Part shown: in pieces, positions 49,753-57,194 of the stretch | Layout of the letters: every line of letters begins with the position of its first letter | Numbering within the stretch: the stretch's first letter is position 1 | Source of the DNA: Pseudomonadota bacterium | GTDB taxonomy: Bacteria; Pseudomonadota; Gammaproteobacteria; Nevskiales; Nevskiaceae | Direction of reading: 5' to 3' | NCBI GenBank assembly: GCA_040385605.1 | Contig: JAZKHC010000026.1 | Location: 5,680 to 69,679 of the forward strand | Length of the DNA stretch: 64,000 bases | Program-made: the position numbers and the translations under genes | Notes under the pieces: generated by a model | Told to the model about the DNA's origin: nothing | The model's input: the letters and a program-made list of their open reading frames with translations, nothing else | Databases searched by the model: none

Positions 49753-49890
49753 CAAGGCGATAAGCCCGAGTCTCGAAAGCGGGCACCGCGTTAAAAGCAT
49801 GCCTTAAAAGTAAAGATCACTTTTAAAGCTAGTAATGGATTACTTAAAAAGATAGGCTTTACTTTGCAAGGTCCACGGGGGAGGCGGGAT

Positions 49891-51051
49891 ATGCAAGCCA
49901 GTGACTTCCACACGGCCCTCGCCGGGCGCGTTATCAGCACCCCGCAGGGCTATATGGCCTTCGTGCCTGCGCCCTTGCCGCCGAAAATCACCTACACCCC
50001 GGCACTGGCGCGAGCGATTTCCGATGCCGATGCGGCCCTGAGCGAGCTGTCCGGACTAGGCCATCGGCTGCCCAATCCCCATGTGCTGATCGCTCCCTAT
50101 GTCAGACGCGAAGCGGTGCTGTCGTCTCGTATCGAAGGCACGCAGGCCAGTATCAACGATGTGCTGGAAGACGAAGCGGGCCTGAGCCCGCAGACCGCAC
50201 CGGATGATGTGCGCGAGGTGCGCAACTACATCACCGCGCTCGATCACGGCATCGCAGCGATGGAAAAGCTGCCGCTTTCACTGCGGTTGGTGCGCGAGGT
50301 GCACGACAAACTCATGCAGGGCGTGCGCGGTAACACCGCCACACCCGGCGAATTTCGCCGCAGTCAGAACTGCATCGGCCCACCTGGCAGCACGCCGCTC
50401 ACCGCGCCCTACGTGCCACCGCCCGTGCACGAGATGCACACCGCACTCGGTGATTGGGAGAAGTTTCTGCACTGGCGAGGCGAGATGCCTGATCTTGTGC
50501 AGTGCGCGCTGATCCACGAGCACTTCGAGGCCATCCACCCCTTTCTCGACGGCAATGGCCGTGTTGGCCGCTTGCTCATCACCTTGTTCCTGCTCGATCG
50601 GGGGCGGCTGCATCAACCCTTGCTTTACCTCTCGGAGTTCATCGAGCGTCACCGCCGCGAGTATTACGAGGGCCTGCACCGAATCCGCACCGAGGGCGAT
50701 TGGCACGCCTGGCTCATGTATTTCATGGGTGGCGTGCGCTGGAGCGCCGCACGCGCCAGCCGCCACGCGCGGCAGTTGTTGGACTTGCGTGAAGAGCTGC
50801 GCCGCACGCTCGATGCCACCCCCAAGGCCCTGCCGTTGGTGGATGAGCTTTTCGTCAACCCCTACGTCAATCCGCCGCGCCTGCAAAAGCTGCTCGGTGT
50901 GAGCGACCCCACCGCGCGCGTGATGATCGTCAAGCTGGAGAAGCTCGGCGTGCTGCGCGAAGTCACTGGCCGTAGCTGGGGCAAGCTCTGGCTGGCCGAG
51001 GCCGTGATGAAAGCCATCGAAGACCCTGGCGAAGAGCCGCTAGAGGGCTAG
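49891..51051 (+). CDS. Fic-family adenylyltransferase with N-terminal inhibitory motif and C-terminal HTH
   Basis: HPFLDGNGRVGR core motif; SSRIEGT fits the (S/T)xxxE(G/N) inhibitory motif. Confidence 0.92.
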   Translation: MQASDFHTALAGRVISTPQGYMAFVPAPLPPKITYTPALARAISDADAALSELSGLGHRLPNPHVLIAPYVRREAVLSSRIEGTQASINDVLEDEAGLSPQTAPDDVREVRNYITALDHGIAAMEKLPLSLRLVREVHDKLMQGVRGNTATPGEFRRSQNCIGPPGSTPLTAPYVPPPVHEMHTALGDWEKFLHWRGEMPDLVQCALIHEHFEAIHPFLDGNGRVGRLLITLFLLDRGRLHQPLLYLSEFIERHRREYYEGLHRIRTEGDWHAWLMYFMGGVRWSAARASRHARQLLDLREELRRTLDATPKALPLVDELFVNPYVNPPRLQKLLGVSDPTARVMIVKLEKLGVLREVTGRSWGKLWLAEAVMKAIEDPGEEPLEG

Positions 51052-51056
51052 AAGCG

Positions 51057-54000
51057 ATGAGCACCCTCCTCGTCGCAGACTATCAACGCCGCATCGCCGA
51101 GCTGTTGCAATACGGCGGCAGCGCCAACGAAGACAGTATCCGCAAGGCTTTTGCGCGCCTGCTGGATGACGTGGCCCGCCCGCACGACCTGCGCCTGATC
51201 GAAGAGCTGGAAGTAGTGACCAGCAAGGGAACGAAGGTCTACCCAGACGGCACGCTCAAGGACGCCCTGCGCCTCACCCACGGCTATTGGGAGGCCAAGG
51301 ATGAGCACGATGATCTGGATGAAGAGATCGCCAAGAAGCGCGCCAAGGGCTACCCCAGCGACAACATTTTGTATGAGGACAGCCGCGAGGCGGTGCTGAT
51401 CCAGAACGGTCAGCAGGTGCAGCGCGTCAGCCTCGGCGGCGAGCCCAAACTGATCGCGGACCTGCTCAAGACCTTCGTCGAGTTCGAGCGTGCGGAGCTG
51501 GGCGATTTCCGCCGCGCCATCGAGCAGTTCAAGGTGGACATGCCCAAGGTGCTCGAAGCCCTGCGCGCCTTGATCGAAGCACAGCAGGCCGACAACAAGC
51601 CCTTCGCCAAGGCGCTCAAGACCTTCCTCAAGCTCTGCCAGAGCAGCATCAACGAGTCGGTGACGGCCGACGACGTGCGCGAGATGCTGATACAGCACGT
51701 CCTGACGGAGGACATCTTTCTGCGCGTGTTCGGCGACAGCCAGTTTCACCGCGAGAACAACATCGCCCGCGAGCTGACCAAGGTGGCCGAGACCTTCTTT
51801 ACCGGCGGCGTGAAGAAGAACACCTTGCGGGGATTGGAGAGCTACTACGGCGCGATCCGCGAGGCCGCGGCGGGCATTGCCGACCACCACGAAAAGCAGC
51901 AGTTCCTCAAGGCCATCTACGAAAACTTCTACAAGGTCTACAACCCCAAGCTGGCCGATCGCCTCGGCGTGGTCTACACGCCGGGCGAGCTGGTGCGCTT
52001 CATGCTCGATGGTGTCGATGCCCTGCTGCACCGGCACTTCGGCAAGACGCTTGCCAGCAAAAACGTCGAGATTCTCGACCCCGCCGTCGGCACCGGCACC
52101 TTCATCACCGACCTCATCGAGCACTTGAAGGCGCACCCGCAGGCGCTGAAGCACAAGTACAAGAACGAGATTCACTGCAACGAGGTGGCGATCCTTCCGT
52201 ATTACATCGCCAACCTCAACATCGAGTTCACCTACGCCCAGCTCACCAAGAGCTACGAGGAGTTTCCGCACATCTGCTTTGTGGACACGCTCGACAACCT
52301 CGCCTTCGAGCAGACCCACACCGGCCAGCAGCTGGGCCTGCTCGGCAGCATGAGCAGCGAGAACACCGACCGCATCGCGAAGCAGAACAAGAAGAAGATC
52401 AGCGTCGTCATCGGCAACCCGCCCTACAACGCCAATCAGACCAACGAGAACGACAACAACAAGAATCGGCTCTACGAGGGCATCGACGAGCGCATCAAGA
52501 AAACCTGGATTGCGGCCAGCAAAGCGCAGAAGACCAAGATGTACGACATGTATGCGCGCTTCTTCCGCTGGGCGGCCGACCGCGTCAACAGCGACGGCAT
52601 CATTGCCTTCGTCACCAACCGCAGCTTCATCGACAGCCGCACCTTCGATGGCTTCCGGCTCGAAATGGCGAAGGAGTTCGACGAGGCCTGGGTGGTCGAT
52701 TTGGGGGGAGATGTGCGCGCCAACCCCAAGCTCAGCGGCACCACCCACAACGTCTTCGGTATTCAGACCGGGGTCGCCATCAGCTTCTGGGTCAAGCGCC
52801 ATCGAGCCTCCCTCCCCCAGCGGGGGAGGGCCGGGGTGGGGGCCTCTCAGGGTCTTGCACCCTTGGCTGGCCGCGCTCCCCCCTCTGTCCCTCCGGGACA
52901 TCTCCCCCCGCTGGGGGGAGAAGACAAGGCGCGCATCTTTTATGTGCGTCGGCCAGAGCTGGAAACCGCCGCTGACAAGCTCGGCTGGCTCTCGTCCACG
53001 GGCTTCAACGAGGTGGCCTTCGAGCCGGTCACACCCGATGCCAAGGGCAACTGGATCAATCAGGCCGACAACGATTTCGACACGCTGCTGCCGCTAGCAA
53101 GCAAGGAGACCAAGCAGACGGATTCGCCTGCGAAGGAGCGGGCGCTGTTCAAGCTCTATTCGCTGGGGGTTTCGACCAATCGTGACGAGTGGGTGTACGA
53201 CGACAGCGCCGAGGCGCTGGCGAGCAAGATGCAGTGGTTTGTGAGCCGCTACAGGCAGCAAAAAAAGAGCCGCGACTTTGACGGTGCGATCAAATGGTCA
53301 GAAGCACTCAAGATGCGATTCGAGCAAGGTCGTGAGGAGGCGTTTGACTCAGTGCGCGTCCGCAGCAGCCTATATCGTCCTTTCGCGCGGCGTTGGTATT
53401 ACGACTCATCACTTTTCATTGATCGAGTCGGTTCCAAAGAGGAAATATTTCCGTCTCGTGGTCTGGCGCAAAATAACCATGCTTTGATGATCTGCGCCCA
53501 CCCACAGCTGCCTTTCACTGTCCATTCGGTAAACGCTCTGCCAGATGCGGGCTATTCCTCTCGCGCAACTCTGATGTTCCCTCGCTACGTCTACGGCGCA
53601 GAAGGCAACCGCCAAGACAACCTCACCGACTGGGGCGTCAAGCAATTCGAGAAGCACTACGGCAACTCCCTCCCCCAGCGGGGGAGGGCTGGGGAGGGGG
53701 TGCTGTTCGCACCGCCGCCAGTCGATCCAGTCACCCTGGCGCGTGCCCGAGCCCTGCGCGGCAACCTGACCGAGGCCGAGAACAAGCTCTGGCAGGTGCT
53801 GCGCGCTGCGCAGCTCGGGGCCAAGTTCCGTCGGCAGCATCCGCTCAAGCCTTTCATCCTGGACTTCTATTGCCTGGAACACCGGCTCGCCATCGAGCTC
53901 GATGGCGGCCAGCACAACGATGACGCGGTGGCCGAACTCGATGCAGCGCGCACGGCATGGCTTGAGGCACAGGGCATCCGGGTGCTGCGGTTCTGGAACG

Positions 54001-54746
54001 ACGAGGTGCTGCGCAATGTCGAGGGGGTGGCGCAGCGGGTTGTCGAGGTCATCGCGGAGCTGGTGGCGGCTCCCCCACCCCGGCCCTCCCCCGCTGGGGG
54101 AGGGAGCACGGCGCGGTTCGTTGCTGGGGGAGGGGGCACAGCGGAGCGGCTGATTACGCGCGAGCGCATCTTTGCCTACGTCTACGCCGTACTGCACCAC
54201 CCGGCCTATCGCGCCAAGTACGCGCTCAACCTCAAACGCGAGCTGCCGCGCATCCCGCTCTACGGCGAGGCGGCCGACTTCAAAAAATGGGCAGCGTGGG
54301 GCGAGCAACTGCTGACGCTGCACACCGGCTTCGAGCAGGCTGCACCGTTTGCGCTGATGCGCAGTGAGGCACCCTCTCCCCCAGCCCCTCTCCCGCAGGC
54401 GGGCGAGGGGAGCCAAAGCGCGCCCAAGTGCAAGCTCAAGGCCGACAAGGCCGCAGGCTGCATCGAAGTCGATGCCGCCACCACGCTCAGCGGCATCCCC
54501 GCCACCGCATGGGATTACAAGCTCGGCAACCGCAGCGCGCTGGAGTGGGTACTGGATCAATACAAGGAAGGCACGCCCCGCGACCCGACCATCGCCGCGC
54601 ACTTCAACACCTACCGCTTCGCCGACTACAAGGAGCACGTCATCGATCTCTTGCAGCGGGTGACGACGGTGAGTGTGGAGACGATGCGCATCGTTGGGCA
54701 GATGCCCTCGGCCGACGCGACGGAAACTCTCGCCGCCGCCCGATGA
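51057..54746 (+). CDS. Single-chain restriction-modification enzyme (PD-ExK nuclease + N6-adenine MTase + Type ISP-like C-terminal specificity domain) with in-frame repeat and DUF559 insertions
   Basis: YPDGTL...WEAK, YTPGELV, ILDPAVGTGTF, IGNPPYN, GVSTNRDEWVY, YVYAVLHHPAYRAKYALNLKRELPRIP, LGNRSALEWVLDQY. Confidence 0.88.
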   Translation: MSTLLVADYQRRIAELLQYGGSANEDSIRKAFARLLDDVARPHDLRLIEELEVVTSKGTKVYPDGTLKDALRLTHGYWEAKDEHDDLDEEIAKKRAKGYPSDNILYEDSREAVLIQNGQQVQRVSLGGEPKLIADLLKTFVEFERAELGDFRRAIEQFKVDMPKVLEALRALIEAQQADNKPFAKALKTFLKLCQSSINESVTADDVREMLIQHVLTEDIFLRVFGDSQFHRENNIARELTKVAETFFTGGVKKNTLRGLESYYGAIREAAAGIADHHEKQQFLKAIYENFYKVYNPKLADRLGVVYTPGELVRFMLDGVDALLHRHFGKTLASKNVEILDPAVGTGTFITDLIEHLKAHPQALKHKYKNEIHCNEVAILPYYIANLNIEFTYAQLTKSYEEFPHICFVDTLDNLAFEQTHTGQQLGLLGSMSSENTDRIAKQNKKKISVVIGNPPYNANQTNENDNNKNRLYEGIDERIKKTWIAASKAQKTKMYDMYARFFRWAADRVNSDGIIAFVTNRSFIDSRTFDGFRLEMAKEFDEAWVVDLGGDVRANPKLSGTTHNVFGIQTGVAISFWVKRHRASLPQRGRAGVGASQGLAPLAGRAPPSVPPGHLPPLGGEDKARIFYVRRPELETAADKLGWLSSTGFNEVAFEPVTPDAKGNWINQADNDFDTLLPLASKETKQTDSPAKERALFKLYSLGVSTNRDEWVYDDSAEALASKMQWFVSRYRQQKKSRDFDGAIKWSEALKMRFEQGREEAFDSVRVRSSLYRPFARRWYYDSSLFIDRVGSKEEIFPSRGLAQNNHALMICAHPQLPFTVHSVNALPDAGYSSRATLMFPRYVYGAEGNRQDNLTDWGVKQFEKHYGNSLPQRGRAGEGVLFAPPPVDPVTLARARALRGNLTEAENKLWQVLRAAQLGAKFRRQHPLKPFILDFYCLEHRLAIELDGGQHNDDAVAELDAARTAWLEAQGIRVLRFWNDEVLRNVEGVAQRVVEVIAELVAAPPPRPSPAGGGSTARFVAGGGGTAERLITRERIFAYVYAVLHHPAYRAKYALNLKRELPRIPLYGEAADFKKWAAWGEQLLTLHTGFEQAAPFALMRSEAPSPPAPLPQAGEGSQSAPKCKLKADKAAGCIEVDAATTLSGIPATAWDYKLGNRSALEWVLDQYKEGTPRDPTIAAHFNTYRFADYKEHVIDLLQRVTTVSVETMRIVGQMPSADATETLAAAR
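52808..52923. repeat. Non-autonomous palindromic repeat doublet inserted in frame in the RM gene
   Basis: Left arm CTCCCTCCCCCAGCGGGGGAGGGCCGGGGTGGGGG; right end TCTCCCCCC-GCT-GGGGGGAGA hairpin. Confidence 0.8.
53666..54106 (+). mobile_element. Putative 441-bp element: DUF559/Vsr-like nuclease domain between 35-bp inverted repeats, in frame in the RM gene
   Basis: Inverted arms 53666-53700 and 54072-54106 match 33/35; enclosed ARALRGNLTEAENKLWQ...FRRQHP...LDFYC...IELDGGQH...VLRFWNDEV. Confidence 0.78.
54372..54412. repeat. Related solo palindromic repeat, in frame in the RM gene
   Basis: CCCTCTCCCCCAGCCCCTCTCCCGCAGGCGGGCGAGGGGAG, same architecture as the 54072-54106 arm; encodes PSPPAPLPQAGEG. 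Confidence 0.72.
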
Positions 54747-54777
54747 TCTGAAGCAGCCCCACCAAGCCACCCACGCC

Positions 54778-56409
54778 ATGCACCACACCCCGCTCATCGC
54801 CACCCTCGTCGCTGGCCTCGTGCTGGCGTTCGTGTCCGGGGCGCTGGCGCATCGGCTCAAGGTGTCGCCGCTGATCGGGTATCTCTTGGCGGGTGTGATG
54901 GTGGGGCCGTTCACGCCGGGCTTCGTGGCCGATCAGGCGCTCGCCAACGAGCTGGCCGAGATCGGCGTGATTCTGCTGATGTTCGGCGTCGGCCTGCATT
55001 TTTCGATGAAGGATTTGCTCTCGGTGAAGGCCATCGCCGTGCCGGGCGCGGTGGTGCAGATTGCGGTGGCCACGCTGATGGGTATGGGCCTCGCGCACTG
55101 GCTCGGTTGGTCGCTGATGGCCGGGTTCGTGTTCGGCCTTGCCCTCTCGGTCGCCAGCACCGTGGTGCTGCTGCGGGCGCTGCAAGAGCGGCGTTTGGTC
55201 GATACGCAGCGCGGCCGCATCGCAGTGGGCTGGCTGATTGTCGAAGACCTGATGATGGTGCTGGCACTGGTGCTGATCCCTGCCATTGCTTCGGTCGATG
55301 ATGCCGGCGCACATGCGCGGGACGGCACGCTCGGCATCGTCGCCATCGCGGTCGGCAAGGCGGCTGCCTTCGTGGTGTTCATGCTGCTGGTCGGGCGGCG
55401 AGTCATCCCCAAGCTGCTGCACTGGGTGGCGCAGACCGGCTCGCGGGAATTGTTCAGCCTCTCGGTGCTGGCGATTGCACTCGGCGTGGCCTTTGGCGCG
55501 GCGATGCTGTTCGGGGTGTCGTTCGCACTCGGTGCCTTCTTCGCCGGCATGATTCTCAACGAGTCGCCGCTCTCGGCCCGCGCGGCGGAAGAATCGCTGC
55601 CGATGCGCGATGCCTTTGCGGTGTTGTTCTTCGTCTCGGTGGGCATGCTGTTCAACCCCGCGATCATCGTCGACGCACCAGTGGCGCTCGCCGCGACGCT
55701 CGCCATCATCCTGTTCGGCAAATCGCTGGCGGCGTATGTGATCGTGCGCGCCTTCGGCCACCCCAACCAGACCGCGCTCACCATCTCGGCGAGCCTCGCG
55801 CAGATTGGCGAGTTCTCCTTCATCCTCGTCGGCCTCGGTGTGTCATTGCAGTTGCTGCCGCAGCAGGGGCAAGACCTGGTGCTGGCCGGGGCGATCTTCT
55901 CGATTCTGCTCAACCCGCTGCTGTTCAAGCTATTCGTGCGCAACCAGCCGGAGAAGCTCGCCGAACCCGTTGCCGACCTCAAGCCCACGACGCTGCACGG
56001 CCACACGATTCTGGTCGGCTACGGCCGCGTCGGCAGCCTGATTGGCGCGGGCTTGAAGCGCGCAGGCGAGCCTTTCGTGGTGATTGAAGACCGCAAGATT
56101 CCCGCCGCCGCTGCCTTGGCCGATGGTGCTGAAATCCTCAGCGGCAACGCCGCCGACCCCAAGGTGCTGAAGGCTGCCAATCTCGCCGGTGCGCGCCGCC
56201 TGTTCGTCGCCATCCCGCAGGTCTTCGAGGCAGGCCAGGTGGTGAGCCAGGCCGTGCTTGCCAACCCTGATCTGAAGATTCTGGCGCGCGCCCACTCCGA
56301 TGCCGAAGTGACACACCTGCAAGCTCAAGGTGCCACCGCCACCATCATGGGCGAGGCTGAAATCGCACGCGGCATGCTGGATGCCGCCTTCGAGCGTCGC
56401 CATACCTAA
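54778..56409 (+). CDS. ybaL: CPA2-family cation:proton antiporter with TrkA-N/RCK domain (YbaL/RosB-like)
   Basis: LAEIGVILLMFGVGLHFS, ALSVASTVV, LIVEDL, LAQIGEFSFIL, VGYGRVG. Confidence 0.9.
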   Translation: MHHTPLIATLVAGLVLAFVSGALAHRLKVSPLIGYLLAGVMVGPFTPGFVADQALANELAEIGVILLMFGVGLHFSMKDLLSVKAIAVPGAVVQIAVATLMGMGLAHWLGWSLMAGFVFGLALSVASTVVLLRALQERRLVDTQRGRIAVGWLIVEDLMMVLALVLIPAIASVDDAGAHARDGTLGIVAIAVGKAAAFVVFMLLVGRRVIPKLLHWVAQTGSRELFSLSVLAIALGVAFGAAMLFGVSFALGAFFAGMILNESPLSARAAEESLPMRDAFAVLFFVSVGMLFNPAIIVDAPVALAATLAIILFGKSLAAYVIVRAFGHPNQTALTISASLAQIGEFSFILVGLGVSLQLLPQQGQDLVLAGAIFSILLNPLLFKLFVRNQPEKLAEPVADLKPTTLHGHTILVGYGRVGSLIGAGLKRAGEPFVVIEDRKIPAAAALADGAEILSGNAADPKVLKAANLAGARRLFVAIPQVFEAGQVVSQAVLANPDLKILARAHSDAEVTHLQAQGATATIMGEAEIARGMLDAAFERRHT

Positions 56410-56475
56410 GTGCGGCTTGCCACAAGGTGTATAGCTGGCTTAGCATCAGCGCATCAATCCAGCAGGATCAATCAC

Positions 56476-56745
56476 ATGCGTAGCACAGCCACCTTCGAGC
56501 CGGATGTGTCTAGCCGCTTTCAGCGGTTGTTGACCCAACGTAAGCAAACTCGCAAAACCCTGTTGAACGAGGTCATGCGTCGTGGCCTTGATGCGGTGGA
56601 AACCGCAGAGGTCGAGCTCAAGCCTTTCGTGCTGGTGCCTTTTGAGAGCGGGCCGATTCTCGACACCCGTCCGCCCAGCGTTATCAACGCCGAACTGGAG
56701 CTGGAAGAAATGATGGAAAGCCTGCGGCGCTCGTCTGCCGCATGA
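56476..56745 (+). CDS. Ribbon-helix-helix antitoxin (VapB-like)
   Basis: MRSTATFEPDV...LLNEVMRRGL; ATGA overlap with the PIN gene. Confidence 0.75.
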   Translation: MRSTATFEPDVSSRFQRLLTQRKQTRKTLLNEVMRRGLDAVETAEVELKPFVLVPFESGPILDTRPPSVINAELELEEMMESLRRSSAA

Positions 56746-57194
56746 GCATCAGCCAGCTGACCGACATCAACCTGCTGATCTATGCGCACTTCCCCAGCTA
56801 CCCCGAACACGAGGCTGCCAAGGCTTGGCTACAAGGCCAGTTGAGTGCTGAGGGACTGGCGATGCCTTGGGCTGTGGCTCTGGGATTCGTCAGGGTTTGC
56901 ACCCAGCAGAAGACGCCGTCCGTCGTGCAAACGCTGGGTGCAGCCTGGCAACGGCTGGACGCGATGCTCGACACGCGCAAGGTCTGGCTGCTTGAACCCG
57001 GTGCGCGGCATCGGCAGATCCTGAGCATGCTGATCCCGCTGGCTGGCCGGGATCAGACTGACGTGAGTGGCGACATCACCGATCTGCACCTCGTTGCACT
57101 GGCGATCGAACATCAATTGACCTTGTGCGCCCGCGATCGCGGCTATGCCCGCTTTGCATCCGTCGGCCTCCGCTGGCAAAACCCCCTCATCTAG
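56742..57194 (+). CDS. vapC: PIN-domain VapC toxin
   Basis: TDINLLIYA, HEAAKAWL, GFVRVCT, ITDLHLVALAIEH, CARDRGYARF. Confidence 0.88.
   Translation: MSISQLTDINLLIYAHFPSYPEHEAAKAWLQGQLSAEGLAMPWAVALGFVRVCTQQKTPSVVQTLGAAWQRLDAMLDTRKVWLLEPGARHRQILSMLIPLAGRDQTDVSGDITDLHLVALAIEHQLTLCARDRGYARFASVGLRWQNPLI

What the first reader, a model, noticed from the sequence alone, without database searches (positions are those of the whole stretch)
53666..54106. DUF559 nuclease bracketed by 35-bp inverted repeats, inserted in frame inside a restriction-modification gene: candidate new selfish element
Seen: CTCCCTCCCCCAGCGGGGGAGGGCTGGGGAGGGGG (53666-53700) and CCCCCACCCCGGCCCTCCCCCGCTGGGGGAGGGAG (54072-54106) are inverted copies (33/35). 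Each holds an internal hairpin, CCCTCCCCC-N3-GGGGGAGGG. The span is exactly 441 bp (147 codons) and stop-free in the host frame. It encodes a complete DUF559-type domain (RARALR..LTEAE.KLWQ.LR..FRRQHP..LDFYC..IELDGGQH..VLRFWNDEV). It sits between KQFEKHYG and ITRERIFAYVYAVLH, which read as adjacent parts of the Type ISP-like C-terminal domain. Established: DUF559 is a PD-(D/E)xK, Vsr-like nuclease fold; REP/REPIN repeats are normally served by HUH (RAYT) transposases. Inference: this is an autonomous enzyme-between-two-REPs unit using a Vsr-like nuclease instead of an HUH enzyme. It persists in coding DNA by keeping the frame open in a tolerant loop, so it is translated as part of the host protein without splicing.
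Basis: partly seen in the sequence, partly recalled or inferred. Interest (0 to 1): 0.9.

Follow-up and report, generated by a model that had tools for sequence, protein, structure and literature searches.

The report
Nuclease cassette with BoxC-repeat ends
A small nuclease gene (DUF559/YcjD family) bracketed by inverted copies of the long-known but unexplained "BoxC" triplex-hairpin repeat has been inserted, in frame, into a restriction-modification gene, and the same cassette sits inside many unrelated genes across bacteria, which suggests this nuclease is the missing partner enzyme of BoxC repeats.

Summary
A complete DUF559 domain lies between 33/35 inverted 35-mers, stop-free, inside a 1229-aa Type IIG restriction-methylase gene. 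A syntenic orthologue (88% nt identity) and a second metagenome carry the empty allele. The filled-specific DNA is 53666-54155: 490 nt replace 13 nt.

In the host family, 13 of 118 members carry DUF559. All 13 have it at this loop, and they are scattered over the tree.

Among 80 genomes from many phyla, 66 DUF559 genes of this subfamily have an arm of the same design within 200 nt. The design is hairpin CCCTCNCCC-N3-6-GGGNGAGGG plus a mirror G-tail. Arm density is 55-fold higher near the gene. At least 15 cassettes sit in frame in unrelated genes (MetH, ThiC, PriA, ValS, BioA, HrpA, HsdM).

The arms are the known BoxC/PIT/TMECO "intrastrand triplex" repeats. E. coli ycjD carries one. I found no paper linking them to DUF559.

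The closest characterised relative of the nuclease is the homing endonuclease I-Bth0305I.

There is no target duplication, copy number is about one per replicon, and no recent copies were found. Past insertion is well supported. The mechanism, and whether the nuclease acts on the arms, is inferred.

The parts
51057..54746 (+). Host gene: single-chain Type IIG restriction enzyme-methyltransferase. Order of parts: N-terminal D..ExK motif, ISP coupler, N6-MTase, Type_ISP_C specificity domain. 1229 aa with three in-frame insertions.
   Evidence: ORF. Pfam. PADLOC REase_MTase_IIG, E 1e-287, matched in 3 stretches to a 1024-position profile. D64, E79 and K81 are invariant in the family alignment. 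dN/dS against the empty orthologue is 0.15.
53666..54155 (+). Whole segment present in the filled allele only (490 nt). It replaces 13 nt (GCGGGCGGGCTGC, coding K-R-A-G-C) of the empty allele.
   Evidence: Alignment to orthologue L001. A contig of run X2 joins 53665 to 54155 with GCGGGCGGGCTG between them.
53666..53700 (+). Left arm, a BoxC/TMECO-type repeat: C-stem CCCTCCCCC, loop AGC, G-stem GGGGGAGGG, loop CTG, mirror G-tail GGGAGGGGG. Translated as SLPQRGRAGEG.
   Evidence: It matches the published TMECO pattern with one mismatch. The encoded peptide is a very-low-confidence linker in the AlphaFold model.
53739..54053 (+). DUF559 / YcjD-family Vsr-like nuclease domain (host aa 895-999). 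All 21 family-invariant residues are present.
   Evidence: Pfam E 4e-35. Invariant columns of A2 are defined on this sequence. AF2 model pLDDT 83; Foldseek hits 3HRL, I-Bth0305I and Vsr. PDB profile hits 3HRL at 3e-38 and 3R3P at 1.7e-4.
54072..54106 (-). Right arm, the inverted copy of the left arm (33/35). Its reverse complement is identical (35/35) to the arm at 52806-52840.
54107..54155 (+). Junction segment after the right arm. It includes a 21-nt partial duplicate of the arm's G-stem (54123-54143, 90% to 54093-54113). Translated as ...STARFVAGGGGTAERLI.
   Evidence: Direct repeat D1. The segment is absent from the empty allele. A similar post-arm peptide is seen in homologue P0013.
52806..52925 (+). 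Second insertion in the same gene: one intact arm (52806-52842), a spacer, and a degenerate inverted arm (about 52883-52925). No enzyme is encoded. Net gain of 93 nt compared with the orthologue.
   Evidence: The right half aligns to the cassette's right arm only if a 12-nt gap is allowed.
54357..54418 (-). Third insertion in the same gene: a single arm of the T-type (CCCTCTCCCCCAGCCCCTCTCCCGCAGGCGGGCGAGGG), translated as ...APSPPAPLPQAGEGS. Absent from the orthologue and from contigs of run X2.
   Evidence: (joints 54356>54419 and 54362>54420).

Best explanation
Window 53666-54155 is one copy of a compact selfish cassette of about 0.4-0.5 kb. It consists of a YcjD/DUF559-family, Vsr-like nuclease gene bounded by inverted BoxC/PIT/TMECO repeats. 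Each repeat is a hairpin followed by a mirror-repeat G-tail that can form an intrastrand triplex.

The cassette entered a surface loop of the specificity domain of a Type IIG restriction-methylase after that lineage split from the lineage carrying the empty allele.

It is tolerated because it has no stop codon, points the same way as the host gene, and its C/G-rich arms translate into Pro/Gly-rich disordered linkers. On these linkers the nuclease folds as a separate domain.

Proposed mechanism (inferred, not shown). The nuclease recognises the structured arms and nicks or cuts there. The cassette, and arms on their own, are then copied into broken or replicating DNA by host recombination and repair. 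That is a homing-like, break-and-copy route, not a DDE-type cut-and-paste. It would explain the lack of a target duplication, the low copy number, and the clustering of extra arms next to the nuclease gene.

Shown: the insertion itself, the architecture, its wide distribution, in-frame residence in many genes, and an intact nuclease.
Inferred: that the nuclease acts on the arms, and the route of movement.
For: Insertion at this site
- An empty allele is found at a syntenic locus (parE-fic-RM-parC) with 88% nt identity, and again in a second metagenome.

Distribution in the host family
- 13 of 118 members carry DUF559. All are at one loop, and they are scattered over the host tree next to empty sisters.
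- Empty alleles have short, clade-specific loops.

Association of DUF559 with the arms
- 66 of 79 DUF559 loci from many phyla have flanking inverted repeats scoring above every shuffle.
- A TMECO-like arm lies within 200 nt in 66 of 80 loci: 4.74 arms per kb near the gene against 0.086 per kb further away. 38 loci share the window's arrangement.
- Control: GC-rich viral DUF559 loci of another subfamily have arms in only 4 of 56.
- The two arms of one cassette differ at 1.9 stem positions on average, against 4.8 between cassettes. Protein distance and arm distance correlate (Mantel r 0.19, p 0.001).
- Mirror covariation between G-stem and tail: Fisher p 5e-25.
- All four arms in the 64-kb window lie in this one gene, and all four are absent from the orthologue.

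In-frame residence
- Cassettes sit in frame in MetH, ThiC, a radical-SAM protein, PriA, HsdM, a poly(A) polymerase-family (CCA-adding/PcnB-type) gene, a DUF1156 methylase, HrpA, ValS, a class I tRNA synthetase, an MmeI-like enzyme, BioA, and another loop of an ISP-type enzyme.
- The AF2 model shows a confident DUF559 domain between two linkers of pLDDT 32-44 that are encoded by the arms.

The nuclease
- All family-invariant residues are kept.
- The nearest characterised relative is the homing endonuclease I-Bth0305I.

E. coli
- ycjD ends in a BoxC arm.
- ycjD-positive genomes show 9-24 BoxC-like places; ycjD-negative genomes of the group that includes Nissle 1917 show 2-4. Published TMECO counts range from 1-2 to 19-29 between strains (Holder et al. 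Table S7).
Against: - No near-identical cassettes were found at different sites. The best pair among 80 species is 73% nt identical. The nearest protein relatives of this copy are 50-66% identical. Recent movement is therefore not documented.
- Only one copy per replicon was seen in plasmids and chromids.
- Most arms are far from any DUF559 gene: 5 of 72 assessable exact-match arms lie near one. The link therefore runs from enzyme to arm, not from arm to enzyme.
- A lone PD-(D/E)xK/Vsr-like nuclease cannot join DNA strands.
- Insert identity roughly tracks host identity within the restriction-enzyme family. That pattern also fits old residence with repeated loss.
- The E. coli correlation rests on a few phylogroups. 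O157-type genomes lack ycjD yet keep 11-13 places.
- The exact right boundary of the cassette is uncertain.
Confidence: 0.6

Rival explanations
1. Classical homing endonuclease gene. DUF559 recognises a specific sequence in the empty host allele, cuts it, and is copied in by gene conversion. The arms are passive: insulating structures, linkers or recombination scars. They are not the nuclease's substrate.
For: - The closest characterised relative is the homing endonuclease I-Bth0305I (profile E 1.7e-4; Foldseek probability 1.0). Vsr-like homing endonucleases are documented (PMC2677866).
- All 13 filled members of the restriction-enzyme family use the same loop, although other loops accept arms.
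- The two Pfam-confirmed PriA cassettes sit at the same position, and a third locus (L039, not scanned) shows the same junction context.
- No target duplication and low copy number.
- Two near-identical host genes are 100% identical up to the cassette's left end and 80-85% identical from there on.
Against: - The domain is about 105 aa with no separate DNA-binding module.
- Insertion sites across genomes are many and unrelated.
- Arm design is conserved across phyla and is more conserved than the protein. The arms are 33/35 identical between the window and L002, while the nucleases are 62% identical.
- The two arms of a cassette stay matched to each other. This is hard to explain if the arms are passive.
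- The breakpoint could be an assembly chimera formed at a repeat.
Confidence: 0.2
2. The arms and DUF559 are linked only indirectly. BoxC/TMECO repeats are spread by some other means (another enzyme, or replication and repair errors at triplex-forming DNA). They pile up around DUF559 genes because those genes lie in unstable or horizontally moving DNA, or because the nuclease makes local breaks that attract them.
For: - Most arms are solitary.
- TMECO sites are published hotspots of rearrangement with no known enzyme (PMC4666352).
- E. coli of the O157 type keep 11-13 BoxC-like places without ycjD.
- 14 of 80 DUF559 loci show no arm.
Against: - Arms are 55-fold enriched within 200 nt of the gene, usually one on each side in inverted orientation at a fixed distance.
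- The two arms of a cassette match each other better than arms of other cassettes do.
- The cassette, not the bare gene, is what appears inside host genes.
- All four DUF559 genes in 924 kb of arm-selected metagenome DNA lie within 300 nt of an arm.
Confidence: 0.12
3. DUF559 is an ordinary, vertically inherited functional domain of this restriction enzyme family, for example an extra nuclease. It was lost many times, and the flanking repeats are simply linker-coding sequence.
For: - Catalytic residues are kept in all 13 filled members.
- Insert identity roughly follows host identity.
- DNA methylases and restriction genes are over-represented among hosts: HsdM twice, an MmeI-like enzyme, ISP-type enzymes, and a DUF1156 methylase.
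Against: - The closest homologues (84%, 81% and 76% identical) and 105 of 118 members lack it.
- The syntenic orthologue is empty.
- The host has its own conserved D..ExK motif, and the empty form matches a full-length 1024-position Type IIG profile.
- The same cassette with the same DNA-level inverted repeats is found in MetH, ThiC, ValS, PriA and BioA, and between genes.
Confidence: 0.06

Closest known systems
BoxC / PIT elements / TMECO intrastrand-triplex repeats (Bergler 1992 and Bachellier 1999, as cited in PMC4666352; Hoyne/Maher 2000; Holder et al., NAR 2015, PMC4666352)
   Same: The arms fit the published pattern CCCTCNCCC-N3-6-GGGNGAGGG-N3-GGGNGAGGG. They show the mirror covariation expected of a purine-motif triplex. 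They are widespread in bacteria and linked to local rearrangement.
   Different: The published work treats them as orphan, mostly intergenic repeats with no associated protein. The 2015 paper never mentions an endonuclease or ycjD. Here they occur as inverted pairs around a nuclease gene and inside coding sequence.
REP/REPIN repeats with their RAYT (HUH Y1) transposase
   Same: A low-copy enzyme gene is flanked by inverted copies of a short structured repeat that is more numerous elsewhere in the genome. Enzyme and repeat variants co-vary.
   Different: The enzyme is a Vsr-like PD-(D/E)xK-type nuclease, not an HUH enzyme. The repeat is a hairpin plus triplex tail. The cassette sits in frame inside genes. 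Arm numbers are modest: 4 in this 64-kb window and about 20-29 in E. coli.
Vsr-like (EDxHD) homing endonucleases: I-Bth0305I and the 'fractured gene' endonucleases (PMC3239194, PMC2677866)
   Same: They share the fold and detectable profile similarity. They are selfish nuclease genes that reside inside conserved genes and leave no target duplication.
   Different: Those enzymes sit in group I introns, or between split-intein halves, or as free-standing genes that break the host gene. They also carry extra DNA-binding regions. This cassette is translated through, has no intron (no Rfam match) and no intein domain, and has conserved inverted repeats.
Rickettsia palindromic elements and other in-frame miniature repeats (from memory: Ogata et al., Science 2000)
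   Same: Short palindromic repeats are inserted in frame in protein-coding genes and translated as surface loops. The single and double arms at 52806-52925 and 54357-54418 behave this way.
   Different: Those elements encode no enzyme. Here the arms also bracket a nuclease gene.
Inteins
   Same: An in-frame parasite in conserved genes, often carrying a nuclease, recurring at the same site in homologues.
   Different: No Hint/splicing domain is present. The insert must remain in the mature protein or be removed some other way.
E. coli YcjD and N. gonorrhoeae NGO0050 (PDB 3HRL), stand-alone DUF559 proteins of unknown function
   Same: Same family: PDB profile E 3e-38, 42% identity over the Foldseek structural alignment of the model to 3HRL. 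E. coli ycjD ends inside a BoxC arm and has two more downstream.
   Different: These are free-standing genes between other genes. The left arm is not evident at E. coli ycjD.

Membership tests
DUF559 (Pfam PF04480; YcjD family) | Match to the family profile above the curated cut-off, over the whole domain | tested here: met
   120-125 bits against a cut-off of 20.6; profile positions 5-108 of 109.
DUF559 (Pfam PF04480; YcjD family) | Conserved core residues (R..R, E, W, FRRQH, D, E-x-D-G, H, RFW) and a Vsr-like fold | tested here: met
   All 21 invariant columns of a 43-sequence alignment are present. The AF2 model matches 3HRL with TM 0.88.
BoxC / PIT / TMECO repeat | Pattern CCCTCNCCC-N3-6-GGGNGAGGG-N3-GGGNGAGGG, one mismatch allowed | tested here: met
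   The pattern is quoted from PMC4666352. There are four matches in the window, all in this gene.
BoxC / PIT / TMECO repeat | The third block is a mirror of the G-stem (triplex-compatible), not a direct copy | tested here: met
   G-stem position 4 against tail position 6: A/A 81, G/G 71, mixed 22; Fisher p 5e-25 over 181 arms. The arms are not all independent.
BoxC / PIT / TMECO repeat | Actual formation of an intrastrand triplex | not testable with these tools
   Nearest-neighbour folding shows only competing hairpins. In vitro triplex formation is reported for the E. coli motif in PMC4666352.
REP/REPIN-RAYT system | The associated enzyme is an HUH Y1 transposase | tested here: not met
   The only domain between the arms is DUF559 / REase_MTES_1575.
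REP/REPIN-RAYT system | Enzyme gene flanked by inverted copies of the repeat it is paired with | tested here: met
   Seen in the window and in 44 of 80 genome loci that have arms on both sides in inverted orientation.
Vsr-like (EDxHD) homing endonucleases | Sequence and fold relationship to I-Bth0305I | tested here: met
   Profile E 1.7e-4 to 3R3P. Foldseek probability 1.0, TM 0.80-0.82.
Vsr-like (EDxHD) homing endonucleases | Residence in an intron, an intein, or a split gene | tested here: not met
   The ORF is continuous. No Rfam intron match. No Hint domain.
Vsr-like (EDxHD) homing endonucleases | Cleavage of the empty allele next to the insertion site | not testable with these tools
   Needs an enzyme assay on the empty-site sequence recovered.
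IS / DDE-type transposon or MITE | Target-site duplication at the ends, and a transposase | tested here: not met
   No duplication next to the arms in 31 of the 33 cassettes with the strongest repeats. Two show a 2-nt match, as expected by chance. No transposase domain.
Intein | Hint splicing domain with conserved junction residues | tested here: not met
   No Hint-family hit in the 1229-aa protein. The junction residues are ...YGN/SLPQ and ...RLI/TRE.
Type IIG restriction enzyme-methyltransferase (host gene) | Single chain carrying a nuclease motif, an N6-MTase and a specificity domain | tested here: met
   PADLOC REase_MTase_IIG, E 1e-287. Pfam ISP_coupler, N6_Mtase and Type_ISP_C. Invariant D64/E79/K81. 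No helicase domain, so this is not a true Type ISP enzyme.

The most novel reading that the evidence does not exclude
DUF559/YcjD-family nucleases are the long-missing enzymes of the BoxC/PIT/TMECO triplex repeats. Together with those repeats they form a previously unrecognised class of bacterial mobile element. Its ends are triplex-hairpin structures and its only protein is a Vsr-like nuclease. It survives inside essential genes by being translated as an extra domain on arm-encoded flexible linkers. In effect it would be a non-splicing counterpart of an intein, and a natural source of domain insertions.
Probability: 0.4. Interest if true: 0.9.

Novelty: new variant of a known kind. Interest (0 to 1): 0.8.

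Why it matters
BoxC/PIT/TMECO repeats have been known since the 1990s. They form triplexes in vitro and mark unstable sites, but they have had no enzyme and no origin (PMC4666352). A specific, testable partner is now available: YcjD in E. coli K-12. That would turn an old puzzle into a bench experiment, much as RAYT did for REP.

The finding also shows a route by which a selfish gene can live inside essential genes (MetH, PriA, ValS, ThiC, BioA) without splicing. This matters for two reasons. First, it bears on how proteins gain inserted domains. Second, it affects annotation: a "DUF559 domain" in such proteins is a passenger, not part of the enzyme's design.

A small nuclease that reads hairpin or triplex DNA could also be of practical interest.

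Tried and rejected
- Recent copies. All-against-all comparison of 80 cassettes plus the window found none above 73% nt identity. An exact-arm scan of metagenomes found DUF559 genes only 52-60% identical to this one. Recent transposition or transfer could not be shown.
- Target-site duplication. None found.
- Is the arm doublet at 52806-52925 an internally deleted cassette? Sub-terminal similarity is not significant (p 0.25 and 0.93), so I dropped the idea.
- Excision in reads. Only assembled contigs were available. The joint found is a related empty allele, not an excision product.
- E. coli ycjD-negative strains as clean empty sites. The interval holds the eefRABCD operon instead, so it gives no boundary information.
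- Hairpin stability by nearest-neighbour folding. z-scores are unremarkable because the C-stem can pair with either G block, and triplexes are not modelled.
- Intron or known RNA family. No Rfam match.
- GC-richness as the cause of the arms. Rejected: viral DUF559 loci with 70% GC lack them, and arm distance does not follow GC difference.
- Literature. 25 papers mention DUF559 and 17 mention ycjD. None links either to BoxC or to mobility. The library lacks most subscription journals.
The protein search with the 167-aa insert did not return the window's own protein or P0013, so that list is incomplete.

Full report
**1. The observation**

The sequence is as described. The arms 53666-53700 and 54072-54106 are inverted copies with 2 mismatches in 35. 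At 81% identity the repeat runs on to 53 nt. The core hairpin CCCTCCCCC-N3-GGGGGAGGG occurs three times in 64 kb against none expected, and all three are in this gene.

The ORF 51057-54746 (1229 aa) reads through the element. Pfam finds ISP_coupler, N6_Mtase, a Type_ISP_C domain split in two, and a complete DUF559 domain at aa 895-999 (E 4e-35). PADLOC calls the host a Type IIG restriction enzyme-methyltransferase (E 1e-287). The match to a 1024-position profile comes in three stretches. The upstream gene is a SoFic-type defence gene.

**2. It is an insertion**

The closest homologue (P0002; 84% identical over the best BLASTP local alignment, 90% in the full-length alignment; 1051 aa) lacks DUF559. 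Its gene lies in the same parE-fic-RM-parC neighbourhood. The two genes are 88% identical in DNA.

At the site, 490 nt of the window (53666-54155) stand against 13 nt (GCGGGCGGGCTGC) of the orthologue. The net gain is 159 codons. A contig from another metagenome shows the same empty junction.

Two further arm-only insertions in the window gene (52806-52925 and 54357-54418) are also missing from the orthologue. So four arms were gained in one 3.7-kb gene, and none in the other 60 kb.

The host gene still looks constrained: dN/dS against the orthologue is 0.15.

**3. The host family**

Of 118 full-length homologues, 13 carry DUF559. It always lies between ...DNITDWG..QF..HY and ITKExIFHYVYAVLH. 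Nearly always, PSPxGEG-type peptides (translated arms) sit on both sides.

The 13 are spread over the tree, each beside empty relatives. Empty alleles have short, clade-specific loops of 3-12 residues. The same loop also holds other, unrelated in-frame miniature repeats in several members.

Insert identity roughly follows host identity. The data therefore fit either repeated entry at this site or long cycles of gain and loss. I cannot count the events.

One pair of host genes is 100% identical in DNA up to the cassette's left end and 80-85% identical from there on. This is either a recombination breakpoint or an assembly chimera at a repeat.

**4. The cassette is general**

A scan of one genome per species gave 590 relatives, of which 80 loci were kept.
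- In 66 of 79 assessable loci the DUF559 core is flanked by an inverted repeat scoring above every shuffled control.
- With a strict motif, arms are 55 times denser within 200 nt of the gene than further out (4.74 against 0.086 per kb).
- Arms lie on both sides in inverted orientation in 44 of the 80 loci, and in the window's arrangement in 38.
- The loci come from Alpha-, Beta-, Gamma- and Deltaproteobacteria, Chloroflexi, Nitrospirae, Planctomycetota and others.
- As a control, DUF559 genes of another subfamily on 70%-GC viral contigs almost never have arms (4 of 56).
- Many stand-alone relatives carry the translated arms at both protein ends.
- The two arms of one cassette resemble each other more than arms of other cassettes do. 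Arm type also follows nuclease relatedness.
- In homologue L002 the arms are 33/35 identical to the window's, while the nuclease is 62% identical.

**5. The arms are a known repeat**

They fit the pattern published for E. coli BoxC, later called PIT elements and then TMECO: CCCTCNCCC-N3-6-GGGNGAGGG-N3-GGGNGAGGG. That motif is reported to fold into an intrastrand triplex in vitro, to be widespread, and to mark unstable sites. No enzyme or function has been assigned (PMC4666352).

Across 181 arms, the tail co-varies with the G-stem as a mirror image, not as a direct copy. This is what a triplex requires.

**6. Life inside genes**

Pfam confirms in-frame cassettes in the following hosts:
- MetH;
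- ThiC;
- a YgiQ-type radical-SAM protein;
- PriA, in two genomes; a third locus, L039, shows the same junction context but was not scanned against Pfam;
- HsdM (twice);
- a poly(A) polymerase-family (CCA-adding/PcnB-type) gene;
- a DUF1156 methylase;
- HrpA;
- ValS;
- another class I tRNA synthetase;
- an MmeI-like enzyme;
- BioA;
- a different loop of an ISP-type enzyme.

Cassette length is not a multiple of three in general. The in-gene copies are therefore the survivors of selection.

The AF2 model of the C-terminal 590 residues shows a confident DUF559 domain between host helices. It is joined to them by two linkers of pLDDT 32-44, and these linkers are exactly the arm-encoded peptides.

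Solitary arms lie mostly between genes, but a minority sit in long ORFs.

**7. The nuclease**

This copy keeps all 21 invariant residues of the family. By profile and by fold it matches 3HRL (a DUF559 protein of unknown function), then the catalytic domain of the homing endonuclease I-Bth0305I, then Vsr. Vsr-like homing endonucleases are documented, but in introns and split genes, not in this form.

**8. E. coli**

ycjD, between sapF and fabI, ends in a BoxC arm, and two more follow. In an even sample of 60 genomes:
- ycjD-positive genomes have 9-24 BoxC-like places;
- ycjD-negative genomes of the group that includes Nissle 1917 have 2-4;
- ycjD-negative O157-type genomes have 11-13.

Published TMECO counts per strain range from 1-2 to 19-29 (Holder et al. 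Table S7). From memory, the low-count strains belong to phylogroup B2 and the high-count strains to phylogroups A and B1. ycjD occupies the place of eefRABCD in phylogroups A, B1 and C.

This fits an enzyme-repeat pairing, but it rests on only a few lineages.

**9. Mechanism**

Shown: the insertion, the architecture, its breadth, in-frame tolerance, and an intact nuclease.

Not shown: activity on the arms, or movement.

The absence of a target duplication, the single copy per replicon, the homing-endonuclease kinship, and the clustering of arms around the gene all point to a nuclease-made break followed by copying through host repair.

The rival readings are:
- sequence-specific homing with passive arms;
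- an indirect association between arms and gene;
- an ordinary inherited domain.

The last is the weakest. The orthologue is empty, and the same cassette sits in unrelated housekeeping genes.

**10. Novelty and limits**

In the searchable library, no paper links DUF559 or ycjD to BoxC or to mobility. Subscription journals are mostly missing from that library.

All comparative material is one genome per species or metagenome contigs, so recent events could not be seen.

Noticed in passing
window 52806-52925 and 54357-54418: There are two further in-frame insertions of the same repeat family in the same gene: an arm doublet and a single arm. Both are absent from the orthologue. With the cassette's two arms, all four arms in the 64-kb window lie in this one gene.
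   Followed up: yes
L001 5334-8489 (orthologous gene), opposite window ~53470: The empty orthologue carries its own, different in-frame palindromic repeat (GTCATTCCCGCGAAGGCGGGAATCC...GGATTCCCGCTTGCGCGGGAATGAC, translated VIPAKAGIQ...DSRLRGNDEG). The same peptide motif sits in the DUF559 loop of homologues P0113 and P0022. This gene family's loops collect several kinds of translated repeats.
   Followed up: partly
window 53424-53660 (host aa 790-868): The stretch just upstream of the cassette is far more diverged from the orthologue than the rest of the gene: dN/dS 0.34, dS 1.26, with indels. It may be a specificity-determining variable region.
   Followed up: partly
window 54673-57194: A KefB-like antiporter gene and a vapBC-like pair lie between the restriction gene and parC. 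In the orthologous locus L001, parC follows the restriction gene directly. The antiporter ORF's listed start overlaps the end of the restriction gene.
   Followed up: no
window 49864-51051: The upstream neighbour matches the SoFic defence family (E 6e-114). The interval between parE and parC is therefore a small defence island.
   Followed up: partly
L083 1213-4788 and L084 1501-5211: Two host genes from different samples are 100% identical for 2520 nt, then 80-85% identical from the cassette's left end to the stop codon. Their arms carry an extra small hairpin (GGCCGAAGGCC) in the second loop.
   Followed up: partly
L085 1824-2066 / L086 1484-2200 (E. coli sapF-ycjD-fabI): E. coli ycjD stops inside the loop of a BoxC arm, and two more arms follow. 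No left arm is evident. ycjD is full-length in about 3350 of 5426 complete genomes. BoxC-like places per genome differ with its presence.
   Followed up: partly
L020 1571-5377: One class I tRNA synthetase ORF holds both a DUF559 cassette and a GNAT acetyltransferase domain inside the catalytic domain.
   Followed up: no
L061 2325-2987 (Legionella anisa): DUF559 is flanked here by unusually long inverted repeats of 147 nt (score 123). These contain the arm motif plus AT-rich sequence.
   Followed up: no
L058, L039, L062, L013, L015, L034, L054: A minority of cassettes have the arms the other way round, with the G/C tail pointing away from the gene. Six loci were counted this way by the strict motif. 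L039 and L062 were seen only in the repeat alignments.
   Followed up: no
window 53666 / empty allele of L001: The 13 nt lost from the empty site (GCGGGCGGGCTGC) resemble the arm's G-stem plus loop (GCGGGGGAGGGCTG). This could be microhomology at the target, a footprint, or chance in G-rich DNA.
   Followed up: no
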